Shown: positions 36,901-39,900 of the stretch, in pieces
How the letters are laid out: every line of letters starts with the position of its first letter
Position numbering within the stretch: position 1 is the stretch's first letter
DNA from: Catajapyx aquilonaris
Taxonomy: Eukaryota
Length of the DNA: 57,528 nucleotides
Direction of reading: 5' to 3'
Assembly: GCA_000934665.2 (NCBI GenBank)
Contig: JYFJ02002399.1
Location: forward strand, 1-57,528
Made by a program: the position numbers and the translations under genes
Notes under the pieces: model-generated
The model's input: the letters and a program-made list of their open reading frames with translations, nothing else
The model's database searches: none
Told to the model about the DNA's origin: nothing

Positions 36901-39900
36901 ATTGATGAGCCAGGACCTTGGAACGTATAATTCTCATTATGCCAGTGCTATTCAGTTCAAAGAACTGGAGTCATTATTGCCGGCATCCGAAATCAATATT
37001 GTTAAAAATTCTTATTGATTGTTCTCGGAGAGTGAGTTCGACAATGAGCAAAAGTATAATGGTTCTTTTTTTACATTTTATTCCAGGTTTCGACCAATAC
37101 TTCAAATCTCTGCGACCTCGGCTTTCTGGTGACAAGAACGTGTGCACCAGTACAATCTTCAACGAGGTGGCGGACTACGACAACTCGCTTATCATCAATT
37201 GCCGGAATGTTTGGTTCCGGGAGTTCTGGAGCCAGCATTTTAAGTGCACGTTCAATGGAAGTGATAATGGTTCCCAACCATTGTGCTCTGGCAAGGAGCA
37301 AATAAGCGAGTACGAGCAGGAAGGACTAGTGCCGTTTGTTGGTAAGTCCCCATTTCTGAGTAGTGATTGCAGAGTAATGATCGTTTATGCAGGGAGGTGC
37401 ATTATCGAATTTGCCAAAATTTCACTAGTGAAGTAGAAAAACTTTAACTGAAGAAATCTAACTTGTAAATGGAGTAGTAGCAGAGGGCTACGTCGGCAAA
37501 TCAGCCATTCTCTCGTGCTCTGCAATCTAAAGTTTGTCATAATATGCCTAATGAGGCGTCAACTCCTTCATTAGTCCCGTTCTCCCCATCCGTCTCTCTC
37601 AGAACGGATTTACAGGGAAAAAAAAATTCTACGGGATTTTTTTTTTAAACGATAAGAAAAATTTAAGGATTGAAACACCGCTTGGCGCCTTTTGCTTCCC
37701 CCCCAAAAAGGCCGGCAGAAGAATTTCGTGCTTCGAGTACTAAATTTTTTGCTTGAACACTCAAGTATTTTAGAGAAAGATTACCAGCGGAGTTAGTAAT
37801 TTGTGACAGAAAATAGTTTATTTCACAAAATTGGTGATAGTAAGGTAGTAAAGTAGTAGGTAGTCATATATTTTGCAAGAATACTGCAATAATGTTGTGA
37901 CGTCCCTGACATATTCTATGAAATTGAAGAAGGCTTTGCATAATGTATCGCTGGAAATATATAGATTCACTGAGAGCTTTCATGAGAGATGCGGAAAATT
38001 TGAGATATTTATGTCACATGAGAATTGATTTTGACGCATCCCATTTACGAACATCTATTGTTACTTTGGGCCTGTCGTCGTGTATTTGTTACAAAATATC
38101 TAGGCTGCATTCCACTGTAGAAATAGACCTATAGCATTTTGTAGGAAAACTTTTATTATAAAGGAAAATGTAGTAATAAGCTTACTTCATACCTGGAGTG
38201 TGAATAATTATGAAAGCAAGTCTGCTTAGTTCTGGTGCAAGTGAAACTTTTTGATCTTAACTGCGAACACCGGAGGGTTTCCAACGCATCGGTTTTAATG
38301 ATGTTTATGTAATTACGAGTTACAGTACCTGGTACAGCTTACCTACTCTCTTGAGCTACCACTGCATACACATACAGTATTGCATTTTACAGTTCCACTC
38401 ACTTACAACATATCGAGGGTATAGTGATACTCTATGAATTTAATATTGATCACAAACAGTGTAAATAATTACTGTTGATATCATATTTCTACCAAAAGCA
38501 CTGTCAATCAGTCTTGTGTTTCTCTAGAGTTCTTGTAATAACAATGCTGTACAGTAGGCTACCTGCAAGAAAATGGAGTTTTTATATGCCTTGCGACAAC
38601 CTATATAAATTGTAGCGTCCAAAGCAACCACAGGACTCCATTTTGATCGCAAACACTCCTCCTTGTTTGCCTTATTGTACGAGAAATAAGAGCCTCTTTC
38701 GGTAGATTACATTTCAACAAGCTTGCTTTTCTACGTCTTCCCTCAAATAAGACGCACTACTTCCTGGGGGAAAAAATATGTCTTATGCCTGAAAATTCTG
38801 ATTTCTGGCCAGGAGGAAAATTCTGCTGCACTCTTATACACGTGCAAAGGATGAGCCTCCCTTGCTCTTTTAAGTTGATGAGAACACGAAGACTTAATTA
38901 AAATGGTGATTTATGAGAGAAGGGATCCCTCCGAAAACAAGACTATAGGTTATACAAATCTGGGAAGCTTGTCGGTGTCGGTAACCTGCCTCACGATGGC
39001 GGTGAGATTAAAAGCCAAACATAATTTATCCCCCCTTTCTCCCCACTCCTCCCCTCCTCCCCACAAAAAAGAGCGTCCGTTATCTCCCTCAGAATTTCCG
39101 TATCATGCTAAGTAGGTCGAGAGGCTGGATGCTGGGAAAATCTGGCATTAAACGGGAAGATGAGAACAAGTTTGTCGCCGCTTTTACTGCTCCGCGCATT
39201 CCTCCTATGCACTTGTGTCAATAATTACCTTCCTAATGGTGAGTAACGAACAAGACACTTCCGGCGATGAAAACTGGGAATGTCGGAACAGATGGAAAGT
39301 TGCAAAAAGCGGTTGTCTGTAATGACTCGGGGGTGTTTCCAGACCATCACAACTCTTCCTCCCAACCCCGCACTCTGCTCTGTCGTACAATCTTATTGCG
39401 ATAATAAAAACCTTCCAGCACGAGTGGTCGGGTGACAAATACCGACCGTGAAGCAAAAGGCAAGCTGCGATCTGTCTATTCCGAGCACGCGTTGGGATGT
39501 CGAGAGGCTTCTCTCTCTTTTTTTTTTTCGAGTGAGACGTGGAGTGATCGTGGTCTACCAGCCAGATATTTCGTGATGTCTTTACACTTCAGCAATGCCT
39601 AAGGTGCGATTCATTCAGTACTGAGAGCAGAGATGAACCATAAAGAGTGGGATGATTTTGCACGACACATATCCTTAAAAAATTTGTACAATTTTACCTG
39701 CGCATATCTATACATTTTGGCGACTTGACGAAATTGTGTTCATCGCATCGGTAGTACTGCAGGCAATTTTCAGTGGAGTGGGCAATTTGAGGTTGCCCCT
39801 TTGTCGTTTTGAAGATGACAGCAGGTCTTTTTCCGTCTGGTAGCCTCATCCAGACTCGAGAGACGCTGAAGTGTGCACTTCGTGATAAGCACAGGACGAA

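What the first reader, a model, noticed from the sequence alone, without database searches (positions are those of the whole stretch)
37311..37341. Glutamate-binding lysine replaced by leucine: possibly a receptor for a different amino-acid ligand
Seen: [15 protein letters not shown] (CTA at 37326-37328). Known: glutamate-activated mGluRs have Lys here (mGlu4 YEQEGKVQFV K405; mGlu2 K377; mGlu1 K409), contacting the distal carboxylate. Residues that hold the alpha-amino-acid moiety are retained (Ser of GASFS, Thr of YAST, Asp of PPD, Tyr of GEYG, Asp of GSDSW). The insect receptor mXR/mangetout shows the same pattern of loss and is not glutamate-activated. Inference: an orphan mGluR-like receptor with a more hydrophobic distal pocket, likely mislabelled by automatic annotation. 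With the Cys insert, this is the best candidate for novel biology here. The partner Arg (mGlu1 R78) is outside the window.
Basis: partly seen in the sequence, partly recalled or inferred. Interest (0 to 1): 0.75.

Follow-up and report, generated by a model that had tools for sequence, protein, structure and literature searches.

The report
Invertebrate group III glutamate receptor
The lysine-to-leucine change is real, but it marks an old, little-studied invertebrate branch of the group III glutamate receptors (insects, crustaceans, arachnids, molluscs, worms), not a one-off or mangetout-type receptor, and whether that branch still answers to glutamate appears untested.

Summary
Observation confirmed: CTA (Leu) at 37326-37328 aligns with the group III mGluR lysine in an intact 12-exon gene. 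The gene is not mXR/mangetout. Its probable first exon, on contig C3269, keeps the Arg78 and Lys74 equivalents. It nests in class III with vertebrate mGlu4/6/8 (100/99), and grouping it with class IV is rejected (AU p 5e-53). The genome's mangetout ortholog lies on other contigs. Leu is not peculiar to this gene: 100 of 106 homologues carry it, as do molluscs, an annelid and hemichordates. Vertebrates, amphioxus and echinoderms keep Lys. Best reading (0.6): a Gi/o-type class III receptor that still uses glutamate or a similar acidic amino acid, at lower potency, through the retained Arg82, Lys78 and Lys320. Rival (0.3): the whole protostome class III lineage has another ligand. Ten searches of an incomplete paper library found neither the substitution nor pharmacology for this clade. 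The scan's notes showed no earlier report.

The parts
37326..37328 (+). Leu codon (Leu426 of the 931-aa model) at the position of mGlu8 K401 / mGlu7 K407 / mGlu4 K405
37087..37341 (+). Exon carrying the Leu site and the Cys insert (phase 1 at both ends)
37122..37202 (+). Insert of about 24 aa with Cys365 (37143-37145), followed by Cys384 (37200-37202) in place of mGlu7 R359; shared by insects and crustaceans, absent in the chelicerates sampled
6786..6917 (+). First exon in the window: Ser163 (alpha-carboxylate contact) and Phe162; phase-0 acceptor; GC splice donor
23599..23778 (+). Exon with Thr186, Asp206, Tyr234 (Pfam ANF_receptor, E 1.9e-22)
24720..24889 (+). Exon with Arg261, Asp289, Glu290
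27808..27962 (+). Exon with Asp315 and Lys320 (mGlu4 K317 equivalent)
41685..41831 (+). Exon continuing the helix after the Leu site
45058..45181 (+). Venus flytrap exon
45446..45554 (+). End of flytrap and start of cysteine-rich domain
49489..49993 (+). Cysteine-rich domain and first transmembrane helices (Pfam 7tm_3, E 2.8e-34)
50772..51076 (+). Middle transmembrane helices (Pfam 7tm_3, E 3e-29)
51134..51262 (+). Last transmembrane helix and helix 8
52369..52554 (+). Last coding exon: cytoplasmic tail and stop codon

Best explanation
SHOWN: an intact class C GPCR gene, the single class III mGluR ortholog found in this arthropod genome, from the protostome branch whose pocket has a hydrophobic residue in place of the distal Lys. 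INFERRED: it works as a dimeric Venus-flytrap receptor coupling to Gi/o like mGlu4/6/7/8. It grips the alpha-amino-acid end of the ligand with the standard residues (Ser163, Thr186, Asp206, Tyr234, Asp315). It neutralises an acidic side chain with the three basic residues it keeps (Arg82, Lys78, Lys320; also Arg261), Lys78 standing in for the lost Lys. Glutamate, or a close acidic amino acid, therefore most likely remains the agonist, at lower potency and with altered group III pharmacology. Class III membership is about 0.97 likely; the confidence below is for the ligand part.
For: Class III placement: 99 SH-aLRT, 100/99. The Capitella protein that PMC6307864 files as mGluR4-8 (CapteG198326) is my P0100 and has the Leu. 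In the alignment (8 Lys-type, 25 non-Lys class III, 11 other rows), position 401 is the only one of 34 inspected pocket columns that separates the two class III groups; the screen over the whole flytrap flagged three other columns (232, 282, 286). Lys74-eq plus Arg78-eq are present in 67 of the 68 proteins where the motif could be read among 106 (the exception is the starfish). Position 74 varies where the distal Lys is kept: Gly/Ser in echinoderms, Ala or Lys in amphioxus, Asn in mGlu7, Gln in mGlu6; this fits compensation. PMC9750798 (passages) states that K409 is the one mGlu1 pocket residue whose mutation does not severely hinder binding (secondary citation) and reports a schistosome receptor with 6 of 7 contacts changed that still responds to glutamate. 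In C. elegans the mgl-3 overexpression phenotype needs the glutamate transporter EAT-4 (bioRxiv 2020.04.23.037242, passages); nematode class III proteins have Tyr at this site. That MGL-3 is the class III member is recalled, not checked.
Against: PMC13100132 (passages) says this Lys (mGlu6 K400) contacts the L-SOP phosphate and that mutations at it and three other pocket positions markedly reduce or abolish glutamate or L-AP4 activity in other subtypes. PMC13544217 (section 7) says mGlu7 K407 contacts glutamate. Leu is invariant across the arthropods sampled, which suggests selection for a hydrophobic side chain. Compensation by Lys74 fails for hemichordates and for two of three nematodes, which lack both. 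Phe162 (64 of 77 readable hits) and loss of the mGlu8 R108 equivalent make the pocket less basic still. The mgl-3 evidence is indirect, and the same test also rescued mgl-1. No ligand or G-protein data were obtained; I could not inspect pocket geometry in the model.
Confidence: 0.6

Rival explanations
1. The protostome class III lineage has changed ligand: it binds an amino acid or derivative with a less charged or bulkier side chain and is a true orphan, parallel to but independent of class IV. Hemichordates may have changed convergently.
For: All 25 protostome and hemichordate class III rows have a non-basic residue (20 Leu, 3 Tyr, 1 Ala, 1 Val); 100 of 106 hits are Leu. This Lys is reported as important in group III. 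The genome keeps class I and class II genes with both Arg and Lys, so glutamate signalling is covered by paralogs.
Against: Arg78-, Lys74-, Arg258- and Lys317-equivalents are conserved in the arthropods sampled, hard to explain without an anionic side chain. K409 is reported tolerant in mGlu1. EAT-4 dependence of mgl-3.
Confidence: 0.3
2. It is an mXR/mangetout (class IV) receptor or behaves as one, for example sensing L-canavanine.
For: Loss of the distal Lys with retention of the alpha-amino-acid contacts is shared with DmXR (PMC2695807, passages).
Against: Arg78 kept. AU test rejects the gene with class IV (p 4.8e-53) and the protostome Leu clade with class IV (p 1.8e-4). The N-terminal motif of Drosophila mangetout printed in the PMC6307864 supplement matches contig C1267, not this gene. 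Class IV has Gln, Tyr or Phe here, not Leu.
Confidence: 0.02
3. The flytrap has become weakly ligand-sensitive and the receptor works mainly through constitutive activity, heterodimers or an extracellular protein partner docking near the Cys insert.
For: The insert sits at the mGlu7 L355-R359 stretch that contacts ELFN proteins, whose allosteric path ends at K407 (PMC13544217; register).
Against: All other ligand contacts are conserved. The insert is limited to insects and crustaceans whereas Leu is much older. No partner was sought or found.
Confidence: 0.08

Closest known systems
Invertebrate class III mGluRs (mGluR4-8_Cte, _Ame, _Sma, _Lgi of Ramos-Vicente 2018, PMC6307864)
   Same: Same clade. 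The Capitella member is in my trees and has the same Leu; 53% identity to the model; damselfly ortholog 72%.
   Different: The text I read notes loss of Arg78/Lys409 only for class IV and some non-bilaterian proteins. Insects and crustaceans add a two-Cys insert.
Vertebrate group III mGluRs (mGlu4, 6, 7, 8)
   Same: Best PDB matches of the damselfly ortholog (831 bits for mGlu4 against 759 for mGlu3 and 630 for mGlu5); 44-47% identity to the model; shared Lys74/Arg78/Arg258/Lys317 set.
   Different: Lys405 to Leu; Phe at mGlu8 position 155; Pro at 403; Asp at 283; insert at the ELFN-contact stretch.
DmXR / mangetout (class IV mGluR)
   Same: Distal Lys lost, alpha-amino-acid contacts kept.
   Different: Class IV also loses Arg78 (Ala or Pro) and has Gln/Tyr/Phe at the Lys site; separate clade; this genome has two class IV genes elsewhere (C1267 plus C1910, and C55).

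Membership tests
mGluR-type class C GPCR | Venus flytrap, cysteine-rich domain and 7TM in one open frame | tested here: met
   799 codons without internal stop; Pfam ANF_receptor and 7tm_3, NCD3G below its cut-off on a partial exon; model of the damselfly ortholog, mean pLDDT 81.5, matches mGlu structures at E 1e-77
mGluR class III | Groups with vertebrate mGlu4/6/7/8 to the exclusion of classes I, II, IV | tested here: met
   (LG+G4, no mixture model)
mGluR class III | Lys74, Arg78 and Lys317 equivalents | tested here: met
   Lys78, Arg82, Lys320; the first two are on the C3269 exon, whose link to the window is inferred
mGluR class III | Distal Lys (mGlu4 K405) | tested here: not met
   Leu426; a vertebrate-based criterion, since published invertebrate class III members such as Capitella also lack it
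mGluR class III | Activation by glutamate, L-AP4 and L-SOP; Gi/o coupling | not testable with these tools
   needs expression assay
mGluR class IV (mXR/mangetout) | Both Arg78 and Lys409 replaced | tested here: not met
   Arg retained; definition
mGluR class IV (mXR/mangetout) | Groups with Drosophila mangetout | tested here: not met
   AU p 4.8e-53; the Drosophila mauritiana protein P0236 was taken as mangetout by its match to the motif
mGluR class IV (mXR/mangetout) | Insensitive to glutamate, activated by L-canavanine | not testable with these tools
   needs expression assay

The most novel reading that the evidence does not exclude
The whole protostome class III mGluR lineage, annotated everywhere as glutamate receptors and overlooked because Drosophila lacks it, is a second orphan amino-acid receptor family with a non-glutamate endogenous ligand; hemichordates lost the same Lys independently, and insects and crustaceans added a disulfide-closed loop at the allosteric groove that ELFN proteins use in vertebrates.
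Probability: 0.3. Interest if true: 0.7.

Novelty: new member of a known kind. Interest (0 to 1): 0.4.

Why it matters
The gene itself is an ordinary ortholog. The useful point is clade-wide: a residue described as strictly conserved in all mGluR subtypes (PMC13100132) is hydrophobic in the group III receptors of the protostomes and hemichordates sampled. If glutamate still works, this is a natural test of how the four basic residues of the group III pocket share the load. If not, bees, beetles, shrimps, molluscs and nematodes have an unrecognised neuronal ligand-receptor pair absent from vertebrates. One expression experiment separates the two.

Tried and rejected
mXR/mangetout identity: rejected. 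Sequencing error or private mutation: rejected. Alternative Lys-coding exon in the window: none found. Pseudogene: rejected, open frame with canonical splice sites except one GC donor. Overlap between the end of C3269 and the start of the window: none, so the link rests on homology, phase and orientation only. Single origin of Leu for hemichordates plus protostomes: the free trees join them weakly (89/81, 87/89) but a hemichordate-plus-echinoderm clade is not rejected (AU p 0.13), so one or two losses, or loss and regain, cannot be told apart; the site's own column was not removed from these alignments. RNA evidence: no RNA holder listed. Structure: a model of the damselfly ortholog gave the fold only, no pocket geometry. 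Pfam on 20 long intronic frames: 0 of 20 hit. Literature: searches returned nothing relevant; PMC6080095 gave no matching passage; a C. elegans mGluR paper I recalled was not held under two ids. The alignment file of PMC6307864 is held with long runs cut, and its figures are not held, so I could not see whether its authors displayed the Leu in class III rows. Scan notes by words and by sequence: nothing.

Full report
Observation. The bases at 37311-37341 translate to [10 protein letters not shown] plus one base, with CTA at 37326-37328. The helix continues after a phase-1 intron at 41685. Against solved structures the Leu aligns with the Lys of the group III motif in all five alignments printed. 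The window is a whole contig holding 12 coding exons from 6786 to 52554, 799 codons with no internal stop; all acceptors are AG and all donors GT except a GC donor after 6917.

The missing Arg. A search of the own genome with a mayfly homologue gave 34 matches. One on contig C3269 is 72% identical to query residues 26-120. It encodes a signal-peptide-like start, ends in phase 0 exactly where the window's first exon begins in phase 0, and reads toward the contig end. It keeps both the Arg78 and the Lys74 equivalents. The two contigs do not overlap, so the link is inferred; no other class III-like match appeared. The joined model is 931 aa.

How widespread the Leu is. All 42 hits have Leu. Of the 106 proteins have Leu, 1 has Lys (starfish) and 5 could not be read at the site. 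They include insects, crustaceans, horseshoe crab, mites and the annelid Capitella. One search found 2617 proteins and listed 120; of the 118 new ones, 105 have Lys (vertebrates where named), 11 Leu, 1 Ala (nemertean) and 1 Val (hemichordate). The Leu group there is molluscs, chelicerates, hemichordates and one unnamed protein. Amphioxus and echinoderm class III proteins keep Lys; three nematodes have Tyr; a flatworm and a spider have Leu.

Which class. Ramos-Vicente et al. 2018 (PMC6307864; passages, section 10, all of supplement 9, searches in supplement 10) define class IV, which holds mangetout, by loss of both Arg78 and Lys409. They file Capitella CapteG198326 as class III; that is my P0100, which has the Leu. 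The N-terminal motif of Drosophila mangetout in their alignment file matches contig C1267 of this genome. Three trees (50 of 65 prepared rows, 15 dropped for run time; 24 rows; 27 rows; all LG+G4) put the window gene in class III with mGlu4/6/8, next to the insect orthologs. Forcing it into class IV costs 210 log-likelihood units (AU p 4.8e-53); forcing the protostome Leu clade there costs 65 (p 1.8e-4). The genome holds one gene each of class I (C726 with C3341) and class II (C361), both with Arg and Lys, and two class IV genes (C1267 with C1910: Ala and Gln; C55: Pro and Phe); the pairings of split contigs are inferred.

The pocket. In mGlu8 numbering the model keeps K71, R75, S156, A177, T179, D199, Y227, R255, E284, D309 and K314, and changes A155 to Phe, N283 to Asp, K401 to Leu, Q403 to Pro and R108 to Ser. 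No new basic residue appears among the 34 columns inspected. The Lys74 and Arg78 equivalents are both present in 67 of 68 readable proteins, while position 74 varies in lineages that keep the distal Lys. That pattern fits compensation in protostomes but not in hemichordates or two nematodes, which lack both.

What is known about this Lys. The sources disagree. PMC9750798 (passages) calls K409 the exception among mGlu1 pocket residues and reports a glutamate-responsive schistosome receptor with most contacts changed. PMC13100132 (passages) says mutations at the equivalent position markedly reduce or abolish activity and calls it strictly conserved. PMC13544217 (passages and section 7) places mGlu7 K407 in contact with glutamate at the end of an allosteric path from ELFN proteins. 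In C. elegans the mgl-3 overexpression phenotype needs EAT-4 (bioRxiv 2020.04.23.037242, passages); that MGL-3 is class III is my recall. DmXR is not activated by glutamate and responds to canavanine (PMC2695807, passages). The primary mutagenesis papers and Mitri 2004 were not seen.

Mechanism. Shown: gene structure, class, pocket residues. Inferred: dimeric flytrap closure on an acidic amino acid held by Arg82, Lys78 and Lys320, then Gi/o signalling, with glutamate the likeliest agonist at reduced potency (0.6). Rival: a ligand switch in the whole clade (0.3).

The Cys insert. About 24 residues with one Cys, followed by a second Cys, lie in the same exon. The second-Cys motif is present in 93 of 101 readable proteins and absent from the four chelicerates, the annelid and the starfish (the other two exceptions are insects). 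It sits at mGlu7 L355-R359, part of the ELFN contact surface. A disulfide is plausible but not shown. It is younger than the Leu and so does not explain it.

Novelty. The clade is in print as invertebrate class III. Ten searches found no statement of the Lys-to-Leu change in class III and no pharmacology for it, but the library lacks most subscription journals, and figures and the full alignment of PMC6307864 were not visible. PMC3261222 (passages) lists only DmGluRA and DmXR for Drosophila, and no Drosophila class III hit appeared, which may explain the neglect. PMC9138782 (passages) reports similar distal losses in ascidian receptors, so such losses recur in the family. Verdict: real, conserved, ordinary as a gene, moderately interesting as an untested clade-wide pocket variant.

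Noticed in passing
window 6918-23598: The 16.7 kb intron after the first window exon starts with a GC donor (GC-AG type).
   Followed up: partly
G000:C3269:18029-17631 (-), locus L036: Probable first coding exon of this gene, with signal-peptide-like start and the Arg78 and Lys74 equivalents; implies a first intron of at least 24 kb across the contig break.
   Followed up: yes
G000 contigs C361; C726 and C3341; C1267 and C1910; C55: The genome holds a full mGluR set: class II, class I, and two class IV genes including the mangetout ortholog. Class I is listed as absent from bee and centipede in the PMC6307864 table.
   Followed up: partly
proteins P0121, P0124, P0136: Hemichordate class III receptors lack the distal Lys, Lys74 (Gln) and Arg258 (Met/Ser); they are stronger candidates for a ligand switch than this gene.
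   Followed up: partly
window 37122-37202: Two-Cys insert shared by insects and crustaceans lies at the surface that binds ELFN proteins in vertebrate group III receptors.
   Followed up: partly
hit lists: No named class III hit from Drosophilidae, mosquitoes, Lepidoptera or Hemiptera, though midges, sand flies and soldier fly have it; weak evidence of losses because the search is word-based.
   Followed up: no
window 56245-56376: Imperfect inverted repeat (41-nt arms, 78% complementary) downstream of the gene; possibly a small transposon remnant.
   Followed up: no
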